Assembly: GCA_019309485.1 (NCBI GenBank)
Contig: JAFDGC010000001.1
Location: 81,772 to 145,771 of the forward strand
Origin: Deltaproteobacteria bacterium
GTDB taxonomy: Bacteria; Desulfobacterota; Desulfobacteria; Desulfobacterales; UBA2156
DNA: 64,000 nucleotides
Direction of reading: 5' to 3'
The notes beneath the pieces were generated by a model that had not been told where the DNA came from, made no database searches, and saw only the letters and a program-made list of their open reading frames with translations. The position numbers and the translations under genes were made by a program. This document shows, one piece after another, positions 40,715 through 54,556 of this stretch. Positions within the stretch are counted from its first letter, which is position 1. Each line of letters begins with the position of its first letter.

Positions 40715-40724
40715 GTGAAGACAC

Positions 40725-40759
40725 CGCGGCGCGGGACGTCTGAAAACACCCGCGCCGCG
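40725..40759 (+). other. 11-bp GC stem-loop between acsB and acsC
   Basis: CGCGGCGCGGG-13 nt-CCCGCGCCGCG with no U-tract. Confidence 0.7.
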
Positions 40760-40795
40760 ATATCGGAAATCCATCAATCGAACAAGGAGAATAAA

Positions 40796-42136
40796 ATGGC
40801 ATTAACCGGTATTCAGATCTTCAAACTCTTGCCGAAAACCAACTGCAAGGAGTGCGGCGTTCCCACCTGCCTGGCTTTTGCCATGAACCTGGCATCCGGG
40901 AAAGCCGAACTCGACAGTTGCCCCTATGTATCGGAAGAAGCCAGGGCCCAGCTTGCCGAAGCCGCGGCGCCCCCCATCCGGCCGGTGGCCATCGGAAAAG
41001 GGGTTCGCGCATTCACGGTGGGCGGGGAAACGGTCCTTCACCGCCATGAAAAAACCTTTTTCAACAAGCCCGCCCTGGCGGCGCTGGTCAATTCCGATAT
41101 GGACGACAAGGCACTTGCCGCCAAACTCAAGACCTGGAACGCCTTTCAGTTCGAGCGGGTGGGGCTCAATCTGCGCCCGGAACTGGTGGCGTTGAAGGAT
41201 GTCAACGGCGATGCCGCTGCATTCGCCCAAAAAGCCAAGACCATCGCCGAGACCTCGGAATTCAACCTGGTCCTGATGACCGAAGATGCGGCCGTGATGA
41301 AGGCGGGAATCGACGCCTGCGGGTTCAAGCGGCCCCTCATGTACGCCGCCACGGCGGCCAATGTGGAAGATTTCGGGAAACTGGCCATAGAAAACGATCT
41401 GCCCCTGGCGGTGAAGGCCGACAGTATCGAAGACCTCATTCCGCTTACCGACAAACTCACGGAAATGGGGCTAAAAGACCTGGTCCTGGATCCGGGTTCC
41501 CGGGAAATCCAAAAAGCCCTGCATGACCAGGTGGCCATCCGTCGTGCAGCGCTGAAAGACAGCAACCGGAAAGTCGGGTTTCCCACCATTACTTTCCCCT
41601 GTGAAATGGCCTCCAACCTGGATGTGGAGACCCTCATCGCGGGCATGTTCGTGGCCAAATACGGCGGCATTATCGTCCTTTCCGACTTTACCGGGGAATC
41701 GCTGTTCCCGCTCCTTTTGGAACGGCTCAATATCTACACCGATCCCCAGCGCCCCATGACCGTCACCGAAGGCATCTACGAGATCGGAACCCCCGACGAA
41801 AATTCCCCGGTCCTGGTCACCACCAACTTCGCCCTCACTTACTTTATCGTCTCCGGAGAAGTGGAAGGAAGCAAGGTGCCGGCGCGGTTGTTGATCAAGG
41901 ACTCCGAAGGGCTTTCGGTCATGACCGCTTGGGCGGCCGGAAAGTTCGCCGGAGACGACGTGGGGATCTTCGTGAAAAAATGCGGCATCGAGGACAAAAT
42001 CAAACACAAAGAGGTGATTATTCCGGGCTACGCCGCGGCCATTGCCGGAGACATGGAAGAAGAACTCCCCGGCTGGACCGTGACCGTGGGGCCCAGAGAG
42101 GCCGCCCACATCCCCGGCTTCCTCCGGTCCCGATGA
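40796..42136 (+). CDS. acsC: corrinoid iron-sulfur protein large subunit
   Basis: LPKTNCKECGVPTCLAFA..CP, NIYTDPQ.P, TTNFALTY, TAWAAGKF and VGPREA. Confidence 0.98.
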   Translation: MALTGIQIFKLLPKTNCKECGVPTCLAFAMNLASGKAELDSCPYVSEEARAQLAEAAAPPIRPVAIGKGVRAFTVGGETVLHRHEKTFFNKPALAALVNSDMDDKALAAKLKTWNAFQFERVGLNLRPELVALKDVNGDAAAFAQKAKTIAETSEFNLVLMTEDAAVMKAGIDACGFKRPLMYAATAANVEDFGKLAIENDLPLAVKADSIEDLIPLTDKLTEMGLKDLVLDPGSREIQKALHDQVAIRRAALKDSNRKVGFPTITFPCEMASNLDVETLIAGMFVAKYGGIIVLSDFTGESLFPLLLERLNIYTDPQRPMTVTEGIYEIGTPDENSPVLVTTNFALTYFIVSGEVEGSKVPARLLIKDSEGLSVMTAWAAGKFAGDDVGIFVKKCGIEDKIKHKEVIIPGYAAAIAGDMEEELPGWTVTVGPREAAHIPGFLRSR

Positions 42137-42200
42137 CAAAAGGGGGGGCTGGAACCGTGGCAATGAAAAGCCGTCAATGTCTGAACCCAAAGGAGGCGAC

Positions 42201-43082
42201 ATGTTACTGATTGGCGAAAGTTTGAACGTCATATCGAGAAAGATCGGCCGCGCGTTCAAGGAACGGGACCCGAAGCCGATCCAGGAAGAAGCCCTCTTCC
42301 AGAGGGAAAAGGGCATGGATTACATCGATATCAACCTGGGTCCGGCCAAGAAGGACGGTCATGAACTCATGCCGTGGGTGGTCGAAACGGTTCAGGAGGT
42401 CGTAGACGACATCCCCCTGGCCCTCGACACCTCCAACATCGACGCCATCGAAGCGGCCCTGAAGGTCTGCAAGCTTCCACCGCTCATCAATTCCATCATG
42501 GTGCGGCCGGAACGATACGAGCGGATGGTTCCCCTCGCCGCCGAGTACAATGCCGATTTCATCGCCCTCATGTGGGGCCCGGATGGGCTGCCGAGGGATG
42601 AAAACGAACGGGCCGCCCTGTGCGTGGAACTCCTCTACTTTGCCAATGAAGCCGGCATCCCCAATGAAAAGATCTGGGTGGACGGCATCGTTACGCCACT
42701 CAACATCCAGCAGCCGCAACTGATGAGCCTGTTGGCATTTCAGCAGATGCTCCCGGATATCGCCCCCGGGGCCAAGAGCACCTGCGGGCTTTCCAATATT
42801 TCCAACGGACCGCCGGAGCACCTTCGCCCCATATTGAACCAGACCTATATGGTCATGCTGGAAAAGTACGGAATGTATTCGGTCATCTCGGACCCCCGGG
42901 ACGACAAATTGACCGAAATCGCCAAAGGGAAGCGGCCGGATATCGTGGAGCTGATCCATAAGATGATGGACGGCGAAGAGCCCGACATGCAAAGCCTTTC
43001 CAAGGAGATGCAGGATTACGCCAAAACGGTGAACGTCATCCTCGGAAAAACCCTGTATTCGGACTCCTGGCTGGAAATATAG
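42201..43082 (+). CDS. acsE: methyltetrahydrofolate:corrinoid Fe-S protein methyltransferase
   Basis: Pterin-binding barrel motifs LIGESLN, DINLG, LDTSN, INS and GLSNISNG; downstream of acsC. Confidence 0.92.
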   Translation: MLLIGESLNVISRKIGRAFKERDPKPIQEEALFQREKGMDYIDINLGPAKKDGHELMPWVVETVQEVVDDIPLALDTSNIDAIEAALKVCKLPPLINSIMVRPERYERMVPLAAEYNADFIALMWGPDGLPRDENERAALCVELLYFANEAGIPNEKIWVDGIVTPLNIQQPQLMSLLAFQQMLPDIAPGAKSTCGLSNISNGPPEHLRPILNQTYMVMLEKYGMYSVISDPRDDKLTEIAKGKRPDIVELIHKMMDGEEPDMQSLSKEMQDYAKTVNVILGKTLYSDSWLEI

Positions 43083-43092
43083 CCTTTTTTAT

Positions 43093-43232
43093 TTTTAAGG
43101 GTTGGATGCCGGCCCTCAATCGGAGCCGGAGCAGATACACAACATAAGCTTTTTTAGAAAATGGACGGAGCTTCAGACCGCGAAAGAACGGTCGACCCTG
43201 GGCGGTTACGCCGGCATCCGAAACCCTTAAAA
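43093..43232. other. long intergenic inverted repeat (21-bp stem with 2-nt bulge)
   Basis: ttttaagggttggatgccggc pairs with gccggcatcc(ga)aacccttaaaa; inner hairpin gaccg/cggtc. Confidence 0.65.
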
Positions 43233-43240
43233 GAAAGCAA

Positions 43241-43855
43241 ATGCCCCGTATCGACGACTACATCGCCTCCCGCAACCTCGCCGTCGAGGACCTGGCGCGG
43301 GAGTCTTTTTCGGATCTCCGTGACCGCACGGGGTTTTCCCAGTCGTCGGCAAACACCTTCCTTGTCCCCTTCCTGGACCGGGTCTATCATGTGCGTTTTC
43401 CGGATTTTTTCTTTGAAGACCGGGATGCGCCCGAAAAAGAGGTCCCGATTCAGGAGCAGGTATTGATTCTCCATTACATGGCCGGAAGCAAACCGGCGCC
43501 GCCCGAGGGACACTGGATATCGTACCGGGAGATTCCGGGCGCGTCCTTTTACTACAGCGCCTTTCTCAAGCGCGCCGTGGAACCCCTGAAAAACGTCTTC
43601 GGCCACAATACCGGGGGGCTGAAAAAGGCCGCCGGACGCCTCGGCGCCGTCGAAATTCCGGAAGGCGATAACGCCCTGGAGTATTTCCCGTTTCCCAAGG
43701 TCCCCATGAGACTCATTTTATGGGCCGGTGACGACGAATTCGGCCCCGAGGCCAACATTGTTTTTGACCGAAACATCGGATCCATCCTTTCCCCCGAAGA
43801 TGTGGCCTGGATGGCCGGCATGGTGGTCTACCGGCTCATCGCCCTTTCCCGGTGA
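43241..43855 (+). CDS. DUF3786 domain protein
   Basis: EQVLILHY, WISYRE.P.A..Y...F, FPKVP...ILW..D.EF...AN..FD and EDV. Confidence 0.9.
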   Translation: MPRIDDYIASRNLAVEDLARESFSDLRDRTGFSQSSANTFLVPFLDRVYHVRFPDFFFEDRDAPEKEVPIQEQVLILHYMAGSKPAPPEGHWISYREIPGASFYYSAFLKRAVEPLKNVFGHNTGGLKKAAGRLGAVEIPEGDNALEYFPFPKVPMRLILWAGDDEFGPEANIVFDRNIGSILSPEDVAWMAGMVVYRLIALSR

Positions 43856-45969: not shown

Positions 45970-46021
45970 GAACCTTCGGACTTCAGAGAAAAGGCCGGAA
46001 AGCATCCGAAATGAAACTTCC

Positions 46022-46050
46022 TTGAAAATGTCGGTCCCCGTTGTTATGAT
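46022..46050 (+). promoter_or_regulatory. sigma70 promoter for the dikinase-like/gap-like operon
   Basis: TTGAAA-17bp-TATGAT with an extended TG. Confidence 0.6.
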
Positions 46051-46088
46051 ATTTTACTCACATTTCATTTTTCCTCAAGGAGTGCGGC

Positions 46089-49000
46089 ATGGTGCAATCC
46101 AAAGCCCTGGAAGTCAATTTGGCCGACTACCATGTGGATGTACAAATCGATCCCAAGTACCGGGTCATCCAGGAGATCATGGAGCGGTATTACGGATTGG
46201 CGGAAGGGCTGAACACCTTGCTAAGGGAACTTTCCCATCCTTACCGTAACTGGCATTTCATCGCGAAAGAAGCCCGGACCTATGCCCTGGACTACTTCCA
46301 TGTCTTTAAAAGCCATCCAAAGGGAGATCAAGGGGTACAGCGTTTCGTCGACATTTTTTTCAGCGCCTTGCAACAGGATCGGACCCCGGAGGTTCATCCG
46401 GAGGCCGTGGACAACCTCTTGCTGTATCTGCAAAAGGTCATCAAGGAGTCCGGACCGGCCGTCGAGCGGTTTGCGCCGGTGATTCGAAACGCCTTCAACG
46501 CCATCCGACGGCTCGATGACTCATCCTTTTTTCTGTTCGTTAAAAGTTACTATTCCCTTAAAAAACACGGCGAATTTTTGCTGCGCCATCCCGAGGAAAC
46601 GGTGGGCGACCTCGAGCCGGCATACCTTCTGCTGCATCGTTATTTTGCGCAGACCTATGCCTACTGGTTGAGCGAACCGGATGTGAAAACCCGAGTGGAA
46701 AGAGAGCTCCTGGAGGAGGACCCTCCCCACGATCTGTATCATCTTTTTAACGAAGTTTCCCACGACCGCCTCCGGGACCTCACGCAACGCCTGGAAGCGT
46801 TGAATCGGCCCGGTTCCGGGAATTTCCGGGAAAGGATTCAGCAGCTCCTCACCCTTCCGGGATTCAACCAGATCGTGGAGGTCTACCGGAAAATCCCGGG
46901 ACGCCTCCAGGAAGTCGGCGCCTCCCGGGGGCGCGGGCGTGGATGGAAACTCGTCTTTTTGTTTCAGATCATGAACCTTCCCGGGCTCTCCGATCTGCAT
47001 GAAGAAACCTTGCGGGACATTAACCAAACCGTCGGGCATCTTATCCAGCATGAAAAGGGCTGGAACCTCGAAAAGCTCATCCAACAAACCTTTGTGATCC
47101 TGAAAGACAGCATCGAAAAATACCCCTCCTCCGCCCTCAGCGGCATTTTGAACATGGGAAAAGGGGTTTATCAAACCGAGGACCCGGGACTCATCCGATT
47201 TTTCATCGATTCCGTCATCGACCTGGGATTTCAGACGCCGGGCCTTTCAGGCGTGGGAGACGATTGGCAAATCCGATCCAACAGCGCCCATCTCCTCAAT
47301 ATCCGGACGTGGCTGGAGCTTGTGGAACTCAATCCGAAACGATCCGTTCGACTCCTTTCCTGTCTGGTGATCTATTTATCCCTTTCCGGCGTTTTCATCA
47401 AAGATACGGATCTGTTCCCCCGGGACATCACCCGGCTGTTAAATGCGGACATCGGGCCGGTATACCATCTCGTGAAACAGCTGGCCCGCCTGATGCCCAT
47501 CTTCTTCAACGACATCGGGGCCGAAGGCCCATTGCGGGACATTTCCACGGAAATCGATGAACTGGCACATCGGAAAGATCTGCTGATCCATTTCTTAAGA
47601 AAACAAAGCCACGTGGAAAGCAGCAACCAGATCGTCCAATTCATTCAAGCCGTGTTCCGGTTCTGGGCCACCCGGGACAAAGCGGGCTTGAAGCCCTTCC
47701 TCCCCCCCAGCATCTTTGAACAAATCGAAACCAAGGGGCCGTATATCGATGGATTCCATGAGATTATGGCCGCCCTTGGAAAAGAAGGGGTCGACCGTGT
47801 CGAAAAATTGCTTTCGATAGAGGACGGACAATTGGGAGAACGCCTCCGGCAGATCGATTCTGTAACGGATACCAATCGCCGCCGATTTCGCTTGGCCGTC
47901 GATTTTTACCGTCTTTTGGTTCAAAAATACAGCTTCAATTTCATCGAATTCGATCGATACCTGACGCATCTCAACGATGAGTCCCTCCCGGATATCCATC
48001 GCCTGAAAAACGCTCTGGCCGAAACCAATCTGAAGAAAAAACTCTTCGGTATTTTAAGCTATCTCGAAGGGCTCAAGGGTATCATATTGTCCGAAAAAAC
48101 CTATGAAGCCAAGGAGGATATCTATAAAAAACGCCACTTTACCGTGGACATCCCCTCCACCTACGGCAGCTACCGGGAACCCAAGTTCGATGCCCTGGGT
48201 CTTTCCTTCCGCCTGGAAAGTCTGGTCAACACCCTGTTCGAGGAAATCATCCATCAATTCGATTTCAGTCTCATCACCAAGGCCACCTTCTATCAGATTT
48301 ACGATGTGCTGCTTCTTTTCGAAAAAGCCCTGGAGCTGGACGGCATCTCTTCCCTGGAAATGGAACGCCACCTGGATCTCATCTCCCATTCCCTGGAAGT
48401 GAAAGGCTTCACGTTCACCCAGTACCTGGACATCTTCAAGGGCTTGTCCCAGAGCGTCTCCAATGTGATTCACGATTATTTCAACACCGTCTATGAACAG
48501 GATTTAAACCGGGTCTTATCCCGGCTTTCGACGGATCAGATCCTTCCCAAATACCTGCCCCAAAAACAGGATCCAAACCCGGATAATATGATGCACCGGG
48601 TGTCGGAAATTTTTTTCCGGGACCGCATCGCCCTTTCTCCGGGACTCCCGCAACTGGATCTTTTCATCAGCCGCATATTGAGCACATTGTTTCATCAGGC
48701 CAATCAATTGCCCAAGGACAAGTTGCATCAACTCCTGCTCTACGATCCGGAACGGGCCATGATGGCCATCAACAAGCCTAAAAGTCGTATTTTGGGGGTG
48801 ATTTATCTGGGGAACAAGGGGTTCAACCTGGTCAAGCTGCATAATTTCGGGTTTCCGATCCCCCCGGGATTTATCATCACCACCGAGGCGTTCCGGTTCC
48901 GGGAGGTCATCAACGGGTTCCCGGCGGCCACAAAAAACCTGGAAGAACAACTCCGTCTCCACCTGCGATATTTGCAGCGACTTACGGGGAAAACCTTTGG

Positions 49001-50318
49001 GGACCCGAAAAATCCCCTCCTCCTTGCCGTCAGGAGCGGGGCCTCCATTTCCCAGCCGGGTATGATGGACACTTTTTTGAATGTGGGGATGAACGAAGAG
49101 ATTGCCGAAGGCATCGCCCGGACCACCCGAAATCCATGGTTGGCCTGGGATAATTACCGCCGGTTTTTACAGTGTTACGGCATGTCTTGCGGGATGGACC
49201 GGGATGATTTCGACGCCATCATCAACAATTTCAAGGAATACTTGAAGATTCCGTTCAAGCGCCGTTTCAGCGGAGATCAAATGCGCTCCGTGGCGTTGGC
49301 ATACAAGAAATCAATCTTAGATATCGGAATTCAAATCGCCGAAGATCCCTTTGAACAACTGACGGTGACCATCCAGCAGGTGTTTGATTCCTGGGATTCC
49401 CACAAGGCCAAGGCCTATCGCCGGATTTTAGGGATTTCCGACGATTGGGGAACCGCCGTCACCGTTCAGGCCATGGTCTTCGGGAATCTTGCGGAAAGTT
49501 CCGGAAGCGGGGTTCTCTTTACGCACAATCCCCGCTGGTCCGGAGAAACCCTCGGCCTCTGGGGGGATTTTACCACGCGGAACCAGGGGGAAGACGTGGC
49601 CCTGGGGCTGGTGCGGACGCTCCCCATCTCCATCCGCCAACAGGACTCGGAACTCAGGGACACCGATACGACCCTGGAAACCCATTTCCCGGAAATCTAT
49701 CATACCCTGGAGCGGTGGGCCAACGATCTGATCCACAAGAAAGGATGGGGACCCCAGGAAATCGAATTCACCTTCGAATCCCCGTCTTCAAAAGACTTAT
49801 ATCTATTGCAAGCCCGGGACATGTTCGTCCGGGAACGGCCGGAAACCATTTCTTTCGATTTCACCCACATCAGCGAAGATCGATACCTGGGCCACGGCCT
49901 CGGCGCCGGGGGGGGGGCCATGGTCGGCCGTGCAGTCTTCAGCATAGAGGAAATCAACCACTGGCGCCGATTGGAACCGGATACCCACCTCATCCTGATC
50001 CGATCCGATACGGTTCCCGACGATATCCGTGAAATCCACGCCGCCGACGGTTTGTTGACGGCACGGGGCGGGGTCAGCTCCCATGCCGCTGTCGTGGCGT
50101 ATCGTCTCGGAAAGACGTGTGTCGTGGGATGCAACATTTTAACCTGTTACGAAAGGGAAAAAATGTGCCGGCTGAATGATACCGTCATTCGGTCCGGGGA
50201 TTTCATCAGCATCGACGGCAGGGAAGGTTCTGTTTATAAAGGCCTCGTGCCAATGATGAACAATACACCCTTTGCAAAGGACGAAGGCACCAAAGAAGAT
50301 CCAACCATCAAAGGATAA
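46089..50318 (+). CDS. PPDK-related protein: ~900-aa unknown N-terminus, ATP-grasp domain, phospho-His domain; no pyruvate-binding barrel
   Basis: LGNKG.NL, PPGF.ITT, VRSGA..PGMMDT, QAMVFGN, QGEDV, LLQAR and GGVSSHAAVVA; the ORF ends just after IDG..G.VY.G. Confidence 0.9.
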   Translation: MVQSKALEVNLADYHVDVQIDPKYRVIQEIMERYYGLAEGLNTLLRELSHPYRNWHFIAKEARTYALDYFHVFKSHPKGDQGVQRFVDIFFSALQQDRTPEVHPEAVDNLLLYLQKVIKESGPAVERFAPVIRNAFNAIRRLDDSSFFLFVKSYYSLKKHGEFLLRHPEETVGDLEPAYLLLHRYFAQTYAYWLSEPDVKTRVERELLEEDPPHDLYHLFNEVSHDRLRDLTQRLEALNRPGSGNFRERIQQLLTLPGFNQIVEVYRKIPGRLQEVGASRGRGRGWKLVFLFQIMNLPGLSDLHEETLRDINQTVGHLIQHEKGWNLEKLIQQTFVILKDSIEKYPSSALSGILNMGKGVYQTEDPGLIRFFIDSVIDLGFQTPGLSGVGDDWQIRSNSAHLLNIRTWLELVELNPKRSVRLLSCLVIYLSLSGVFIKDTDLFPRDITRLLNADIGPVYHLVKQLARLMPIFFNDIGAEGPLRDISTEIDELAHRKDLLIHFLRKQSHVESSNQIVQFIQAVFRFWATRDKAGLKPFLPPSIFEQIETKGPYIDGFHEIMAALGKEGVDRVEKLLSIEDGQLGERLRQIDSVTDTNRRRFRLAVDFYRLLVQKYSFNFIEFDRYLTHLNDESLPDIHRLKNALAETNLKKKLFGILSYLEGLKGIILSEKTYEAKEDIYKKRHFTVDIPSTYGSYREPKFDALGLSFRLESLVNTLFEEIIHQFDFSLITKATFYQIYDVLLLFEKALELDGISSLEMERHLDLISHSLEVKGFTFTQYLDIFKGLSQSVSNVIHDYFNTVYEQDLNRVLSRLSTDQILPKYLPQKQDPNPDNMMHRVSEIFFRDRIALSPGLPQLDLFISRILSTLFHQANQLPKDKLHQLLLYDPERAMMAINKPKSRILGVIYLGNKGFNLVKLHNFGFPIPPGFIITTEAFRFREVINGFPAATKNLEEQLRLHLRYLQRLTGKTFGDPKNPLLLAVRSGASISQPGMMDTFLNVGMNEEIAEGIARTTRNPWLAWDNYRRFLQCYGMSCGMDRDDFDAIINNFKEYLKIPFKRRFSGDQMRSVALAYKKSILDIGIQIAEDPFEQLTVTIQQVFDSWDSHKAKAYRRILGISDDWGTAVTVQAMVFGNLAESSGSGVLFTHNPRWSGETLGLWGDFTTRNQGEDVALGLVRTLPISIRQQDSELRDTDTTLETHFPEIYHTLERWANDLIHKKGWGPQEIEFTFESPSSKDLYLLQARDMFVRERPETISFDFTHISEDRYLGHGLGAGGGAMVGRAVFSIEEINHWRRLEPDTHLILIRSDTVPDDIREIHAADGLLTARGGVSSHAAVVAYRLGKTCVVGCNILTCYEREKMCRLNDTVIRSGDFISIDGREGSVYKGLVPMMNNTPFAKDEGTKEDPTIKG

Positions 50319-50334
50319 GTCAGGAGGGATGACC

Positions 50335-51588
50335 ATGTTTGAGGATTCTCAAGCCCCGACACTTGGTATCAACGGCCTGGGAAGAATCGGAAAGCTCACC
50401 CTGTGGGATCAAGTGGCCCGCAGGCATTTTAAAAAACTGGTGGTCAACATCGGAAGACCGGCCGGGACATCCCTGAAGGATATCGCCCATTACGTGGAGC
50501 GGGATTCCACCTACGGGATGCTGCATACCCGGCTTTACGGCAGCACCGCCGTTCCCCTCATTAAAAACATTGACGAAAACGCCGGAACCTTCGATGTGGA
50601 CGGCATCCGGGTCACCTTCCTCAGGACCCACCGGAACCCGGCGGAGATTGCCTGGCGGGATCACGGGGTTCGGCTCGTGGTGGATACTACGGGTCAGTTC
50701 CTGGACCCGTCTCTTCCCGAAGATCATCCCAAAGGGTCGTTGCGCGGTCACCTTGCAGCCGGGGCCGAAAAAGTGATCGTGTCCGCCCCCTTCAAAATCA
50801 AGGATAAAAGGACCGCCATGCCCGAAGACGCGGTCACGACGGTCATGGGAATCAACCCCCATGCCTATGATCCGAGGCGCCACCGGATCATCTCCAACGC
50901 CTCCTGCACCACCACGTGCCTGGCCCATATGATCAAGCCGATCCTGGATCATTTCGGACCGAAAAAACTCCTTTCCGCCTCCATGGCCACGGTGCACGCC
51001 GCCACCGGGTCCCAGGAAGTCCTTGATCGGCTTCCCAAGGCCGGTAAAACGGACCTTCGAAAAAACCGCAGCATCATGAATAACATCATTTTGACCACCA
51101 CCGGGGCCGCCGATGCCCTGGGCCTGGTGATACCGGAGATGCAGCGCATCGGCATCATCGCCGAATCGGTGCGCATCCCCACCACCACGGGATCCCTCAT
51201 CATCCTGGTCATGAACCTGCAAGAGGACCTGTCCGGTAACGCCATCCGCAAAGAGCGGATCAACGCCGTCTACCGTCAGGCCGCGGATTCGGATCCCAAA
51301 GGATATCTCCACTACACGGAAAACCAGAACGTCTCCTGCGATATCATCGGCTGCCCCACCGCGGCGGCCATAATCGAAGGGCATGAAACCCACACGCGCA
51401 CCGCGGAGGTCGCCATCGATCTGGAAACGGTTCCCGGGCTTGACGCCAAGATCGTCTCCTCCCTCCCGGACCATCAGATCCGGGTTCCCGTGACCCAGGC
51501 GGTGGTTTACGGATGGTACGACAACGAAATGGGAAGTTACGTCCACATGCTGGGGGATCGCATTATCTCCATTGCAGAAGACATGTAA
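50335..51588 (+). CDS. divergent glyceraldehyde-3-phosphate dehydrogenase-family protein
   Basis: GINGLGRIG, YDSTYG-like RDSTYG, SNASCTTTCLA, TVHA, TTGAA, RIPT and WYDNE; about 417 aa with insertions. Confidence 0.9.
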   Translation: MFEDSQAPTLGINGLGRIGKLTLWDQVARRHFKKLVVNIGRPAGTSLKDIAHYVERDSTYGMLHTRLYGSTAVPLIKNIDENAGTFDVDGIRVTFLRTHRNPAEIAWRDHGVRLVVDTTGQFLDPSLPEDHPKGSLRGHLAAGAEKVIVSAPFKIKDKRTAMPEDAVTTVMGINPHAYDPRRHRIISNASCTTTCLAHMIKPILDHFGPKKLLSASMATVHAATGSQEVLDRLPKAGKTDLRKNRSIMNNIILTTTGAADALGLVIPEMQRIGIIAESVRIPTTTGSLIILVMNLQEDLSGNAIRKERINAVYRQAADSDPKGYLHYTENQNVSCDIIGCPTAAAIIEGHETHTRTAEVAIDLETVPGLDAKIVSSLPDHQIRVPVTQAVVYGWYDNEMGSYVHMLGDRIISIAEDM

Positions 51589-51674: not shown

Positions 51675-53207
51675 TTAACAGCGCTGCAAGAAGGCACTCC
51701 GGGTCATCCCGGCCCCGACGCTGTCGTTCACGATCGTTTTGGCCTGTCTGAGCTTTTCCAGATTTTGATTGATTCCGAATCCCTGGATCGTGTCCGGCCG
51801 TAGTGCGCCCCGCTGAAGATCATAAGGGAGGCGCTGCATGCAGACCACCGAGCAGTTGCCCCGGATATGAATGTTGGTGGCCATATTGTTGGCCAGAAAA
51901 TCCGCCACCACCTCTTTCACGTCCCCGGGGCCGCCGTTGAAAACCTGCTCCAGGGTCATGGGAATGATGGCGAAATTGGCCTGGTGTTCGATCAACAGGT
52001 CCACATCCGCCAGGGTGAGGCCGTGAGGCGCCAGCAGGCGCGACAGATGCCCCGGCGCGCTCCGCGTGGCATATAAAAAGACCCCTTTCCCGTCCATCTT
52101 CCCGAATACGCCGTCCGCATCCCGGGAAACATGGATATAATCGGCAAAACACCCGTGCGTTCGTGTCAGTGTATCGATGATGCCTTTTTCCGGCGCCTGA
52201 AAGACATACCCCGTCCCTTCATGAAGGGCGATACGGGCTTCAAGATCCCTGGACAAAAAAACCGAGGCCACCCGTCGGTACTTCCCGGACCGGACATAGG
52301 CCCCGGCAACAGATTCCACCAGATGGGGTTTTGCCTCCAGGGACATGATATCGAAGGCGAAAAAAGGGGCATGGTGATCATAGAAATCGAGTGCGTCTTT
52401 GAACCGGACAAAGCGTCCGTTTTGGGCGGCATCCGGATGCTTCTGCGCCACCAGGGCATGTTGGATCCTCGCCGCCGTGGCCGGAATACGATTCTCGATG
52501 CTCCCCAGGTGGTGGTCCAGGATCAGCCCGTCTAAGGGCTCGGATCCGATGAGGGGCAAGAGCCGTTCGGCGATTTCGGATATGGGATCCTTTTGCACCC
52601 TGAAACCGGGAAGCGTTTTCGTTGCGTACCGCCCCTCCGACGCCGGTACGCCCCGGGTCTCCAGGGCCGTGGCCATGGCGTCATCGCCGAAGATGATATG
52701 GGCCGTGTCGTCGGGCCGGAACGCCTGGGCCCGGTGGATGTTCTCCGCACCCACAATCACCGTGACATCCCCCGGGGCCAGGACACCGCTCAAGGAGAGC
52801 ATGAAGGCCAGCTCCACGGCCACATTGTATCCGGGGCAGCCGGCGTACAAATCGAACACCAGGGCCTCGGGGCACGCCTCTTTCACGATTTCATAGGGAT
52901 ATCGGATCAAAGGACCCCGATCGAATTTATCCTCCCCCACGTTGGTGGCACCGATGAGGATCTTGATCCGTTTGGGATCCACGACGCCGGTGTCGAGAAG
53001 GTTTTTCAGAGCCGCCACCCCGATCCGCTCATGGGGAGGCGCGGCCACCCGGGTCCGGATACCGATCCGCGACTGGATGGTGCCGTTGGTGACGGGGATG
53101 TTTCCCTTGAAAAACATGTTCTTGTTTTCAAAGGCGGAATTATCAACAAGGGTCCCGCCGTTCCATGCCCCCTGGCCGATCACGGTCAAGATTGTTTCAA
53201 GCGCCAA
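51675..53207 (-). CDS. enlarged 3-oxoacyl-ACP synthase III (FabH)-like protein
   Basis: RIGIRTR, FDLYAGC, IFGDDA, MDGKGVF, EHQAN and GNCS. TTG at 53207 follows AGAGGGA. Confidence 0.75.
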   Translation of the reverse strand: MALETILTVIGQGAWNGGTLVDNSAFENKNMFFKGNIPVTNGTIQSRIGIRTRVAAPPHERIGVAALKNLLDTGVVDPKRIKILIGATNVGEDKFDRGPLIRYPYEIVKEACPEALVFDLYAGCPGYNVAVELAFMLSLSGVLAPGDVTVIVGAENIHRAQAFRPDDTAHIIFGDDAMATALETRGVPASEGRYATKTLPGFRVQKDPISEIAERLLPLIGSEPLDGLILDHHLGSIENRIPATAARIQHALVAQKHPDAAQNGRFVRFKDALDFYDHHAPFFAFDIMSLEAKPHLVESVAGAYVRSGKYRRVASVFLSRDLEARIALHEGTGYVFQAPEKGIIDTLTRTHGCFADYIHVSRDADGVFGKMDGKGVFLYATRSAPGHLSRLLAPHGLTLADVDLLIEHQANFAIIPMTLEQVFNGGPGDVKEVVADFLANNMATNIHIRGNCSVVCMQRLPYDLQRGALRPDTIQGFGINQNLEKLRQAKTIVNDSVGAGMTRSAFLQRC

Positions 53208-53245
53208 AGACGTCCCTCTTTGATGGGGTTTCAAGTTCCATTCCT

Positions 53246-54556
53246 CTATAGCCGCCAGTAACGGATCTTTTTTTCCTCGGCTTCGGCAGGATCGAATCCG
53301 CCCTTGACATCCACCAGCAACGGCGTGGCATTGGCGCACAGACCGGCGATCCTCTCCAGCCCCATCTGCGCGTAGTGGGTGTGGATCACCGCCACGATGA
53401 CCGCATCCACGCTGGACAGGGCGTCCAGTTCCTCGAGGCGTATCCCCAGGTATTCCAAGCTTTCATCGGGATCCGCCAAGGGATCATGAATCCGCACGCG
53501 AATGCCGTATGCTTCAAGTTCATGAATAATATCCACCACCTGCGTGTTGCGGATGTCCGGAACGTTTTCCTTGAAGGTGATCCCGAGAACGGCCACCGAG
53601 GATCCCCGGACTTGGCGCCCTTCTTCGATAAGGAGTTTTACGGTGCGTTCGGCCACGTATTTTCCCATGTTATCGTTGATGCGCCGTCCGGCAAGGATCA
53701 TTTCCGGATGGTACCCCAGCGATTCCGCCTTGAATGTCAGGTAATAAGGATCCACGCCGATACAGTGCCCCCCCACAAGGCCCGGCATGAAGGGCAAAAA
53801 ATTCCATTTGGTCCCCGCCGCCTCCAGCACCTCCCGGGTGTCGATATGCATCCGGTCGAAAATCATGGACAGCTCATTCATCAAGGCGATGTTCAAATCC
53901 CTTTGGGTGTTCTCGATGACCTTGGCGGCTTCGGCCACTTTGATGGAAGAGACGGGATGAATCCCCGCGGAAACGACCCTTCCGTAGACCCGGGACAACA
54001 GGGCGGTCGTTTCCGCATCACTCCCGGCAACGATCTTGACGATGGTTTCGAGGCGGTGTTGCCGGTCTCCCGGGTTGATCCGTTCGGGCGAATACCCCAC
54101 CGTGAAGTCTTTTCCGAACTCAAGGCCGGAGGCTTCTTCCAGAATCGGGATGCAGACGTCTTCGGTGGCCCCCGGGAAAACCGTGGATTCGTATACGATG
54201 CAGCTTCCCTTGTTCAGTTGGTTTCCCACGGTTCGGGAAGCGCTTTTCAAGGGATTGAGATCCGGGATCCGGTAGCCGTCGATGGGCGTGGGGACCGCCA
54301 CGATGACAAAACGACAGGCGGCCAGGTCGTCGGGGCGGCTTGTGTATTCCAGCCGCACTTTTGTCATCTCTTCCCTTGACACTTCAAGGGTGCGATCCCA
54401 TCCGGAGCGCAGTTCGGCGATGCGATCCGCCTTCAAGTCGTATCCCACCACATCGAAATGCCGCGCCATGGCCACGGCAAGGGGGAGTCCCACGTACCCC
54501 AGGCCCACCACGGCAAGGCGATCCTTTTGCTGGATCAAAGACTCGAATGTCACCAC
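53246..54556 (-). CDS. UDP-N-acetylhexosamine 6-dehydrogenase (WbpO/TviB-like)
   Basis: GLGYVGLP, VPTP, ESTV.PG, SPERINPG, KVIENTQRD, GGHCIGVDP and FKEN.PD.RN. Confidence 0.93.
   Translation of the reverse strand: MVTFESLIQQKDRLAVVGLGYVGLPLAVAMARHFDVVGYDLKADRIAELRSGWDRTLEVSREEMTKVRLEYTSRPDDLAACRFVIVAVPTPIDGYRIPDLNPLKSASRTVGNQLNKGSCIVYESTVFPGATEDVCIPILEEASGLEFGKDFTVGYSPERINPGDRQHRLETIVKIVAGSDAETTALLSRVYGRVVSAGIHPVSSIKVAEAAKVIENTQRDLNIALMNELSMIFDRMHIDTREVLEAAGTKWNFLPFMPGLVGGHCIGVDPYYLTFKAESLGYHPEMILAGRRINDNMGKYVAERTVKLLIEEGRQVRGSSVAVLGITFKENVPDIRNTQVVDIIHELEAYGIRVRIHDPLADPDESLEYLGIRLEELDALSSVDAVIVAVIHTHYAQMGLERIAGLCANATPLLVDVKGGFDPAEAEEKKIRYWRL

What the first reader, a model, noticed from the sequence alone, without database searches (positions are those of the whole stretch)
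46089..51588. Dikinase-derived giant phosphotransferase with an unknown acceptor domain, paired with a divergent GAPDH
Seen: the 1409-aa ORF carries the PPDK nucleotide-binding motifs from about residue 905 and the His-swivel motif GGVSSHAAVVA (His near 1332). It stops before the PEP/pyruvate barrel and has ~900 N-terminal residues I do not recognise. A GAPDH-like gene starts 16 bp downstream, behind one clear promoter. Established: PPDK needs its C-terminal barrel, and rifampin phosphotransferase and glucan-water dikinase reuse the ATP-grasp and His modules with other acceptor domains. Inference: this is not a PPDK but an uncharacterised ATP-to-His phosphotransferase working with the GAPDH-like enzyme. 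It might make an acyl-phosphate substrate in a PGK-independent step, or phosphorylate the partner protein.
Basis: partly seen in the sequence, partly recalled or inferred. Interest (0 to 1): 0.85.

Follow-up and report, generated by a model that had tools for sequence, protein, structure and literature searches.

The report
Giant dikinase locked to divergent GAPDH
A 1409-residue enzyme wrongly labelled pyruvate phosphate dikinase has that enzyme's ATP and histidine modules joined to a large unknown domain, and it nearly always occurs with a special GAPDH copy in anaerobic bacteria, which points to an undescribed step in central sugar metabolism.

Summary
ORF 46089-50318 (1409 aa) carries a PPDK-type ATP-grasp (907-1244) and His-swivel domain (catalytic H1332), and it has no PEP/pyruvate barrel. 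Residues 1-900 fold with high confidence (pLDDT 89) into an all-alpha domain that has no convincing match in the PDB. Two blocks of this domain (421-510 and 661-720) are as conserved as the ATP site and are rich in invariant Asp, Arg, Lys and His.

A 417-aa GAPDH paralog (GAP2) follows 16 bp downstream. It keeps the catalytic Cys and His but lacks the NAD-specifying Asp.

The pair is a conserved module. In 401 genomes of the phylum, 116 have both genes, 2 have the dikinase only (remnants or fragments), 7 have GAP2 only and 276 have neither. GAP2 is adjacent in 43 of 61 testable named loci from several phyla. The pair often lies inside gap-DIK-gap2-pgk-tpi operons.

It is not a PPDK. My best guess (about 0.35) is an ATP/AMP+PPi-linked phosphotransferase acting at the 3-phosphoglycerate/1,3-bisphosphoglycerate node, in parallel with PGK and not replacing it: every dikinase-positive genome sampled also has PGK. 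The rivals are a VadK-like regulatory kinase and another acceptor. I found no published characterisation.

The parts
46022..46050 (+). sigma-70-like promoter candidate, TTGAAA-17-TATGAT with TG one base before the second hexamer
   Evidence: 10 of 12 positions; the best of 7 sites in the region, against 3.7 expected; sequence read. Consensus match only.
46077..46082 (+). ribosome-binding site AAGGAG, 6 nt before the ATG
   Evidence: read from the sequence
46089..50318 (+). giant dikinase-derived phosphotransferase (DIK), 1409 aa
46089..47108 (+). N-domain part 1 (residues 1-340): helical repeats, weakly conserved (4 of 340 columns at 90% or more)
47106..48278 (+). N-domain conserved core (residues 340-730). 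It has invariant H401, D439, D441, E479, R483, D490, D497, H501, R504, K505, H508, K613, Y614, K681, R682, H683, S690, Y692 and E697, and a beta-hairpin at 675-696. This is the proposed acceptor or phosphotransfer site.
48279..48788 (+). N-domain helical bundle (residues 731-900) with invariant G752, R844 and D857
48807..49820 (+). PPDK-type ATP-grasp nucleotide-binding domain (residues 907-1244)
49881..50252 (+). His-swivel (PEP-utilizers) domain (residues about 1265-1388). The catalytic H1332 codon is at 50082-50084.
50323..50328 (+). ribosome-binding site AGGAGG of the GAPDH paralog
   Evidence: read from the sequence
50335..51588 (+). GAP2, a divergent 417-aa GAPDH paralog. It has catalytic C191 and H221, N38-x-G40-R41 in place of the N-D of NAD-type GAPDH, and conserved inserts PFKIKDK and ETHTRT.

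Best explanation
Shown. The 1409-aa protein belongs to a large, undescribed branch of the swivelling-histidine (PPDK/PEP-synthase) phosphotransferase superfamily. A PPDK-like ATP-grasp domain should load the beta-phosphate of ATP onto H1332 of a C-terminal His domain that is tethered on one side only. The PEP/pyruvate barrel is missing. In its place there is a 900-residue all-alpha N-terminal domain of no recognised fold, whose core is as conserved as the ATP site. The gene is functionally tied to the GAPDH step: it co-occurs almost one-to-one with a dedicated GAPDH paralog (GAP2), is usually adjacent to it, and often lies between the canonical gap gene and gap2-pgk-tpiA. Inferred, at about 0.35. 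The N-domain is the acceptor site for a small anionic triose-level substrate, most simply the carboxylate of 3-phosphoglycerate. The enzyme would then reversibly catalyse 3-PG + ATP + Pi = 1,3-bisphosphoglycerate + AMP + PPi. GAP2, which may be NADP-linked, would reduce or produce the labile acyl phosphate. This would be a higher-driving-force, or PPi/AMP-recycling, route that runs parallel to PGK. It mirrors the way PPDK and PEP synthase run parallel to pyruvate kinase, and it fits the familiar pattern of an acyl-phosphate kinase paired with an acyl-phosphate reductase.
For: Architecture: searches show the ATP-grasp and the His domain with H1332 and no barrel. The ATP-grasp and His-loop residues are invariant across 50 diverse homologues. 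N-domain: the AF2 model has pLDDT 89.4 and pTM 0.82 and is all-alpha; the core alone gives pLDDT 92. Blocks 421-510 and 661-720 have mean top-residue frequency 0.63-0.71, against 0.71-0.75 for the best ATP-grasp and His blocks. The invariant residues are mostly Asp, Glu, Arg, Lys and His, as expected for a Mg/phosphate site. Coupling to GAPDH, by my comparison over 401 genomes: both genes in 116, dikinase only in 2, GAP2 only in 7, neither in 276. All 5 genomes without an adjacent gap2 carry it elsewhere. Adjacency holds in 43 of 61 testable named loci (34 co-directional, 9 convergent), with 3 more nearby, and in 14 of 20 loci I chose from the phylum sample. The named loci span Thermodesulfobacteriota, Nitrospirota, Acidobacteriota and Magnetococcales. 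Operon context gap1-DIK-gap2-pgk-tpiA. GAP2 keeps the catalytic Cys and His and the motifs I recall as the two phosphate sites, so it should still handle a phosphorylated acyl phosphate. The thermodynamic plausibility rests on textbook values I recalled, not on a tool result.
Against: No assay and no ligand model exist, so the acceptor is inferred from context only. PGK is present in all 118 dikinase-positive genomes, so no metabolic gap demands the proposed reaction. In some lineages the pairing is crossed, with glgA-gap1-DIK at one locus and gap2-GNAT-pgk-tpi at another. That does not fit a simple picture of DIK feeding GAP2. The N-domain is a helical solenoid, a fold more typical of protein-binding scaffolds. 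Some homologues carry an N-terminal hemerythrin sensor domain, and GNAT, RapZ and EIIA genes recur nearby. Both observations have a regulatory flavour. The closest characterised barrel-less PPDK derivative, VadK, is a regulatory kinase (PMC13400623, abstract and sections 8 and 17 read).
Confidence: 0.35

Rival explanations
1. Regulatory phosphotransferase, VadK-like. The ATP-grasp and His module autophosphorylates, and the helical N-domain binds GAPDH (GAP2 and/or GAP1). It then either phosphorylates the enzyme or controls it allosterically, setting the direction or flux at the GAPDH node in response to ATP/AMP, Pi/PPi or, in the hemerythrin-fused forms, redox or O2.
For: VadK is a precedent: a truncated PPDK that autophosphorylates on His and interacts with methylcitrate-cycle enzymes (PMC13400623; abstract and sections 8 and 17 read). 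The N-domain has a solenoid-like helical architecture. Hemerythrin fusions occur in P0155, P0156 and P0186. GNAT, RapZ and EIIA genes are recurrent neighbours. The gene is linked to both GAPDH paralogs. A need for a specific protein partner would explain the near one-to-one co-occurrence with GAP2.
Against: The N-domain core holds about 35 invariant residues, mostly charged, and is conserved like a catalytic site. That is unusual for a docking surface. A 160-kDa regulator for a single enzyme is costly. No phospho-acceptor on GAP2 has been identified.
Confidence: 0.25
2. A dikinase for a different acceptor. One option is another triose, tetrose or glycerate-type metabolite handled by GAP2. Another is a polymer such as glycogen, as with glucan water dikinase.
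For: glgA-gap1-DIK arrangements occur in 7 of the 80 named loci and in 2 of my 20 chosen loci (glycogen-synthase Pfam match). The superfamily is known to reuse these modules with varied acceptors: rifampin, glucans and prodiginine precursors (PMC4844700 seen in a search listing; the rest recalled).
Against: Pfam reports no carbohydrate-binding module and the model shows no beta-sandwich. The tightest link is to GAP2, not to glycogen genes. GAP2 keeps GAPDH-type catalytic and phosphate-site motifs.
Confidence: 0.2
3. A true PPDK with an N-terminal extension that uses a PEP/pyruvate barrel supplied in trans.
For: It is annotated as PPDK in public records. The ATP-grasp and His half is closest to PPDK.
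Against: In this genome PF02896 was found only in a PtsI-like 621-aa frame and in a canonical PPDK fragment at a contig edge. Neither is linked to the locus. No barrel gene recurs in the 100 neighbourhoods examined. The family is tied to GAPDH, not to pyruvate/PEP genes.
Confidence: 0.03

Closest known systems
Pyruvate, phosphate dikinase (PPDK; TIGR01828; PDB 1dik, 1ggo)
   Same: The ATP-grasp and swivelling His domain align over PPDK residues 18-510 (E about 1e-88). The catalytic His loop is conserved.
   Different: There is no PEP/pyruvate TIM barrel, and the family score is 385 bits against a cut-off of 843. There is an extra 900-aa all-alpha N-domain. The His domain is C-terminal with a single tether. 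The gene is linked to GAPDH, not to pyruvate metabolism.
VadK (Rv1127c), a barrel-less PPDK derivative of Mycobacterium tuberculosis (PMC13400623)
   Same: ATP-grasp plus His domain without the barrel, with autophosphorylating His chemistry, and an association with metabolic enzymes. NF004531 scores 300.6 bits here. That this model stands for VadK-type proteins is my assumption.
   Different: VadK is about 490 aa (a size I recall) with no additional domain. NF004531 stays below its cut-off (300.6 against 456). The hosts (Actinomycetes) and the context (methylcitrate cycle) differ.
Rifampin phosphotransferase, PRK06241-type 'PEP synthase-like' proteins, and glucan water dikinase
   Same: The same modular logic: an ATP-grasp and a swivel His deliver the beta-phosphate to a third, family-specific acceptor domain. 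The RPH His domain is also C-terminal (PMC4844700 seen in a search listing and abstract; the GWD details are recalled).
   Different: The acceptor domain is N-terminal and unrelated. NF041857 scores 24.6 bits against a cut-off of 999. The weak match of the N-terminus to NF004881 is only 19.6 bits. No CBM was found.
Acyl-phosphate kinase plus reductase pairs (PGK+GAPDH, aspartokinase+ASD, ProB+ProA, ArgB+ArgC)
   Same: A phosphorylating enzyme is genomically coupled to an acyl-phosphate-reducing dehydrogenase of the GAPDH/ASD type. This analogy comes from my own knowledge.
   Different: Those kinases transfer the gamma-phosphate directly and give ADP. Here the chemistry would go through a phospho-His intermediate and give AMP + PPi. 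No activity has been shown.
Type I GAPDH (TIGR01534), compared with the partner GAP2
   Same: Both Pfam GAPDH domains are present, as are the catalytic Cys and His and the motifs I recall as phosphate sites.
   Different: GAP2 scores 322 bits against a cut-off of 367 and is 31-34% identical to the canonical GAPDH of the same loci. It has about 80 extra residues in conserved inserts, and the NAD-specifying Asp is replaced by an x-G-R motif.

Membership tests
PPDK (TIGR01828) | N-terminal ATP-grasp nucleotide-binding domain | tested here: met
   PF01326 at E 3e-27; alignment to 1ggo residues 18-340
PPDK (TIGR01828) | Central swivelling domain with the catalytic His | tested here: met
   PF00391 at E 3e-17; H1332 lies in GGVSSHAAVVA, aligned to the PPDK His loop; invariant in all 50 rows
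PPDK (TIGR01828) | C-terminal PEP/pyruvate-binding TIM barrel (PF02896) | tested here: not met
   No PF02896 match. The protein ends about 20 residues after the His domain. None of the 120 listed homologues carries it.
PPDK (TIGR01828) | Whole-protein score above the curated cut-off | tested here: not met
   384.7 bits against 843.45
PEP synthase (TIGR01418) | Whole-protein score above the curated cut-off | tested here: not met
   68.4 bits against 739.75
Rifampin phosphotransferase (NF041857) | Score above the cut-off, and a central rifampin-binding domain between the ATP-grasp and the His domain | tested here: not met
   24.6 bits against 999. The domain order here is unknown domain, ATP-grasp, His.
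VadK-type truncated PPDK (NF004531, PRK05878) | Only an ATP-grasp and a His domain, about 500 aa | tested here: not met
   300.6 bits against 456. There are 900 extra N-terminal residues. That NF004531 equates to VadK is my assumption.
Glucan water dikinase | Starch- or glucan-binding CBM domains | tested here: inconclusive
   Pfam reports no CBM and the model is all-alpha. Glucan binding by a novel domain cannot be excluded.
Type I GAPDH (TIGR01534), for the partner | Catalytic Cys and His, and both GAPDH domains | tested here: met
   C191 and H221 are invariant in all 34 GAP2 rows; Pfam domains
Type I GAPDH (TIGR01534), for the partner | Score above the equivalog cut-off | tested here: not met
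   322 bits against 367.2. The genome's other GAPDH scores 447.5.
Type I GAPDH (TIGR01534), for the partner | NAD-specifying Asp after beta-strand 2 (the N-D motif; recalled feature) | tested here: not met
   GAP2 has N38-x-G40-R41, invariant, where canonical GAPDHs from the same loci have N-D

The most novel reading that the evidence does not exclude
A previously unknown central-metabolic reaction in anaerobes. A novel-fold domain accepts phosphate from a PPDK-type phospho-histidine and interconverts 3-phosphoglycerate and 1,3-bisphosphoglycerate, with ATP + Pi on one side and AMP + PPi on the other. It works with a dedicated GAPDH. This would be a PPi/AMP-linked parallel to phosphoglycerate kinase. 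Sulfate reducers, syntrophs and cable bacteria could use it to drive gluconeogenesis at low energy charge, or to recover ATP from AMP and PPi.
Probability: 0.3. Interest if true: 0.92.

Novelty: new variant of a known kind. Interest (0 to 1): 0.8.

Why it matters
This 160-kDa protein sits in or beside the gap-pgk-tpi operon. I found it in 118 of 401 sampled genomes of its phylum and in named records from other anaerobic phyla. Public records annotate it as 'pyruvate, phosphate dikinase' or 'PEP/pyruvate-binding domain protein'. It cannot be a PPDK, so metabolic reconstructions of sulfate reducers, syntrophs, cable bacteria and Thermodesulfovibrio that count it as one are wrong at the pyruvate/PEP node. 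They also miss whatever it does at the GAPDH node.

Its strict partnership with a special GAPDH gives a concrete hypothesis that can be assayed. If the acceptor is 3-PG, this adds a new energy-coupling variant to lower glycolysis and gluconeogenesis. If the target is GAPDH itself, it is a new kind of metabolic regulator. In either case the N-domain looks like a new fold with a conserved catalytic-looking site.

Tried and rejected
Fold identification of the N-domain. For residues 1-900, Foldseek against the PDB gave only HEAT/CRM1-type solenoids with TM at most 0.19. VIA-align wide gave a best Z of 9.8 on 95 residues, all helical bundles. For the core 340-730, Foldseek gave 0 matches at E 1e-3 or better, and VIA-align wide gave a best Z of 8.7. 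By the tool's own guidance these values are within noise for helical proteins. A missing match does not prove the fold is new.

The NCBIfam NF004881 match of residues 10-120 looked like a link to the central domain of PRK06241-type proteins. On its own it scores only 19.6 bits, E 2e-4, so I kept it as a weak lead. An hhalign comparison of the family profile with the genome's other dikinase-like 659-aa protein matched only the His domain.

ESM Atlas on residues 370-730 returned only the protein's own kind, with scores of 0.80 or less.

Complex prediction with the N-domain (340-900) and GAP2 gave no answer, score 0.00. This is not evidence in either direction.

The look-up of sequencing runs listed no RNA holder, so I did not run read laying.

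PGK replacement: rejected as an obligatory bypass, because all dikinase-positive genomes sampled have PGK.

Literature. Searches found no paper describing this family or a 3-phosphoglycerate dikinase. They did turn up VadK.

My overlap counts between searches were made by eye from the two printed lists. The arithmetic closes (118-2 = 123-7 = 116).
Full report
OBSERVATION. The window holds an uninterrupted 1409-codon ORF at 46089-50318 on the + strand. An AAGGAG ribosome-binding site precedes it, and one good sigma-70-like site (TTGAAA-17-TATGAT, 10 of 12 positions) lies at 46022-46050. Sixteen bases after its TAA stop, behind an AGGAGG, a 417-codon GAPDH-like gene starts at 50335 and ends at 51588. 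The next gene downstream is convergent.

WHAT THE BIG PROTEIN IS MADE OF. Residues 907-1388 align end to end with residues 18-510 of solved PPDKs at E about 1e-88. That stretch covers the ATP-grasp nucleotide-binding domain, the linker and the swivelling His domain. Pfam finds PPDK_N and PEP-utilizers and no PEP-utilizers_C. The curated PPDK model scores 385 bits against a cut-off of 843. The PEP-synthase, rifampin-phosphotransferase and prodigiosin-ligase models give only traces. The chain ends about 20 residues after the His domain, so there is no barrel.

Residues 1-900 match no Pfam family. AlphaFold2, run on a 50-sequence alignment, gives a confident model (pLDDT 89.4, pTM 0.82). It is all alpha-helix apart from one beta-hairpin at 675-696. 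The core 340-730 folded alone gives pLDDT 92. Neither model has a convincing relative in the PDB: Foldseek TM is at most 0.2 with solenoids, and VIA-align Z is at most 9.8 on helix bundles, which is within the tool's stated noise for helical proteins. So the N-terminus is certainly not a pyruvate-binding barrel.

Across 50 homologues down to about 25% identity, conservation is uneven. Residues 1-340 are weakly conserved. Blocks 421-510 and 661-720 reach mean top-residue frequencies of 0.63-0.71, which equals the best ATP-grasp block (0.71) and approaches the His loop (0.75). The invariant N-domain residues are dominated by Asp, Glu, Arg, Lys and His: H401, D439, D441, E479, R483, D490, D497, H501, R504, K505, H508, K613, K681, R682, H683, E697, R844 and D857. 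That pattern suggests a metal- and phosphate-handling site more than a passive scaffold. This last point is inference.

THE FAMILY. The N-domain alone retrieves 1394 proteins at E 1e-3 or better among the 8000 candidates scored. The 120 listed are nearly all 1389-1421 aa. They come from Desulfobacterales and Thermodesulfobacteriota records, carry PF01326 and PF00391 and never PF02896, and are named 'pyruvate, phosphate dikinase' or 'PEP/pyruvate-binding domain-containing protein'.

An exhaustive search of 50%-identity representatives finds 596 clusters at E 1e-3 or better. The full-length ones listed are 1350-1540 aa. In an even sample of the phylum the N-domain is present in 118 of 401 genomes, in 102 of 340 high-quality genomes, and in 77 of 255 genera.

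Named records extend the range. They include Desulfatiglans, Desulfobulbales (with Electrothrix and Electronema), Syntrophobacteraceae, Smithella, Syntrophorhabdus, Thermodesulfobacteriales, Thermodesulfovibrionales and other Nitrospirae, Aminicenantales and other Acidobacteriota, and Magnetococcales. Some homologues carry an N-terminal hemerythrin domain (P0155, P0156, P0186).

THE PARTNER. GAP2 has both GAPDH Pfam domains but falls below the type-I equivalog cut-off, at 322 bits against 367. The genome also has a canonical GAPDH on another contig, scoring 447 bits. GAP2 orthologues are 48-74% identical to each other across phyla, but only 31-34% identical to the canonical GAPDH of the same loci.

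In 34 aligned orthologues the catalytic Cys (C191) and His (H221) are invariant. So are the segments I recognise from memory as the two anion sites (DLRKNRS, TTTGAA, SVRIPT). The Asp that specifies NAD is replaced by an invariant N-x-G-R. Conserved inserts (PFKIKDK, ETHTRT and others) add about 80 residues. I read this as a working phosphorylating GAPDH-type enzyme, possibly NADP-linked. The coenzyme call is inference.

THE LINK BETWEEN THE TWO. (a) Position. In the 80 named loci, 61 have a complete dikinase and at least 1.5 kb downstream. GAP2 lies within 700 bp in 43 of them: 34 co-directional and 9 convergent, the convergent ones in Syntrophaceae, Smithella and Acidobacteriota types. It is nearby in 3 more. 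In 20 loci I picked across the phylum sample it is adjacent in 14 and nearby in 1. The two sets may share genomes, and related genomes are not independent. Adjacency that survives an inversion argues for function rather than mere inheritance.

(b) Phyletic pattern. GAP2 orthologues (E 1e-90 or better) occur in 123 of the same 401 genomes. By my comparison of the two lists, 116 genomes have both genes, 2 have the dikinase only, 7 have GAP2 only and 276 have neither. The two dikinase-only cases are a truncated 480-aa N-domain remnant (G083) and scattered fragments in a 290-contig assembly (G140). Of the seven GAP2-only cases, four genomes are 61-79% complete. One (G311) has a dikinase remnant with five stop codons about 0.8 kb upstream of gap2. 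One (G112) has a weaker, shorter match. One (G279) looks like a genuine exception.

(c) The five genomes whose dikinase lacks an adjacent gap2 all carry gap2 elsewhere, at 61-71% identity.

WIDER CONTEXT. In several lineages the order is rapZ, PTS-EIIA(Man), GNAT, gap (canonical), DIK, gap2, pgk, tpiA. In Desulfobulbales-type loci it is glgA-gap-DIK, with gap2-GNAT(-pgk-tpiA) elsewhere. A canonical gap lies directly upstream in 9 of 19 and 10 of 62 testable loci.

In this window the neighbours are different. Upstream is a Wood-Ljungdahl cluster (CdhD, a pterin-binding methyltransferase, DUF3786). Downstream are sugar-nucleotide and RNA-modification genes.

PGK is present in 391 of 401 genomes. 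None of the ten genomes without it is dikinase-positive, and this genome has PGK. The genome probably also has a normal PPDK: a C-terminal fragment lies at a contig edge.

HOW IT MOST LIKELY WORKS. Shown: the first half-reaction machinery of a PPDK is intact, meaning ATP-grasp residues and the His loop are invariant, and the His domain hangs on a single tether at the C-terminus. Inferred: it shuttles phosphate between the ATP-grasp and the conserved pocket of the N-domain.

For the acceptor I favour a small anionic metabolite at the GAPDH node, most simply 3-phosphoglycerate: 3-PG + ATP + Pi = 1,3-BPG + AMP + PPi. There are four reasons. The N-domain core looks catalytic. The obligate partner is an enzyme whose substrate or product is an acyl phosphate. 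Kinase-plus-reductase pairs for labile acyl phosphates are a recurrent design (PGK/GAPDH, aspartokinase/ASD, ProB/ProA). And from textbook free energies, which I recalled and did not compute here, the reaction is near equilibrium, as for PPDK. It could therefore add driving force to gluconeogenesis at low energy charge, or regenerate ATP from AMP and PPi in organisms that make both.

I put this specific reading at about 0.35. The general statement, that this is a non-PPDK swivelling-His phosphotransferase functionally tied to the GAPDH step, I put at about 0.9.

RIVALS. A regulatory kinase in the manner of VadK, the barrel-less PPDK derivative of Mycobacterium tuberculosis, is a serious alternative at about 0.25. 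VadK autophosphorylates on His and interacts with methylcitrate-cycle enzymes (PMC13400623; abstract and sections 8 and 17 read). This reading is helped by the solenoid architecture, the hemerythrin fusions, the GNAT, RapZ and EIIA neighbours, and the link to both GAPDH paralogs. It is weakened by the catalytic-site-like conservation.

Another acceptor, including glycogen given the glgA neighbours, stands at about 0.2. A real PPDK using a barrel in trans is at about 0.03, because no such barrel gene recurs.

COMPARISON AND NOVELTY. It works like the PPDK, PEPS, RPH and GWD group: an ATP-grasp and a swivel His deliver phosphate to a family-specific third domain. It is a member of none of these families, because a defining feature of each was tested and not met, or for GWD left inconclusive (see the membership table). 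The third domain, its N-terminal position and the obligate GAPDH partner are new.

Six literature searches found no description of the family or of a phosphoglycerate dikinase. Supplements and non-open papers were not covered. I classify it as a new variant of a known kind, with high interest. The protein is abundant in important anaerobes, sits in the core glycolytic operon, is systematically mis-annotated, and now comes with a sharp, testable hypothesis.

LIMITS. Nothing here shows an activity, a ligand, expression or a physical complex. The complex prediction gave no answer and no RNA run was listed. I could not inspect model coordinates, so the spatial clustering of the invariant residues is assumed, not shown. 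The co-occurrence counts were compared by eye, and they involve related genomes.

Noticed in passing
window 40715-43855: Wood-Ljungdahl genes lie just upstream: a CODH/ACS delta subunit (CdhD plus an Fe-S domain), a pterin-binding methyltransferase-like gene and DUF3786. The same trio neighbours the dikinase in two related loci, L045 and L046.
   Followed up: partly
window 46001-50000: The dikinase gene is about 5 points lower in G+C (0.524-0.528) than its flanks (0.57-0.60). GAP2 is at 0.57. No cause was sought.
   Followed up: no
L146 (G000 contig C40) 299-3474, minus strand: The same genome holds a split dikinase-like pair in tandem. A 659-aa protein has an unknown N-terminal part of about 570 aa plus a PEP-utilizers His domain. 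It is followed by a 440-aa protein that is PPDK_N ATP-grasp only. Its unknown part did not match the giant dikinase's N-domain by hhalign.
   Followed up: partly
P0155, P0156, P0186 (homologues): An N-terminal hemerythrin (HHE cation-binding) domain is fused to some family members. This hints at redox, O2 or iron control.
   Followed up: partly
L161 (G311 contig C6), upstream of gap2: A degraded remnant of the dikinase N-terminus (profile positions 4-104, five stop codons) lies about 0.8 kb upstream of gap2, in a genome that otherwise lacks the dikinase. This looks like gene loss in progress.
   Followed up: partly
L154 (G083 contig C15): A 480-aa open frame matches only N-domain positions 6-235 and 741-913, with no dikinase half, in a genome without GAP2.
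   Followed up: no
L054, L057, L061, L062, L094, L156, L157: A small GNAT acetyltransferase recurs next to the gap genes, upstream of gap1 or directly after gap2. It often comes with rapZ and a PTS EIIA(Man)-type gene. This may be a regulatory layer on the GAPDH node.
   Followed up: partly
G000 contig C84, bases 213-596: A C-terminal fragment of a canonical PPDK (profile positions 393-865, in pieces) sits at a contig edge. The genome probably has a normal PPDK that the assembly broke.
   Followed up: no
window 51675-53339, minus strand: A 554-aa ORF convergent with GAP2 has only faint KAS-III-like Pfam matches (E 7e-4 and 1e-2). It is otherwise unassigned.
   Followed up: no
G106 contig C1: Two GAP2 copies with the same score (557.2 bits, 62% identity to the window's GAP2) lie in one complete genome, at 505491-506717 and 1778710-1779936. 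Only the second is next to the dikinase.
   Followed up: no
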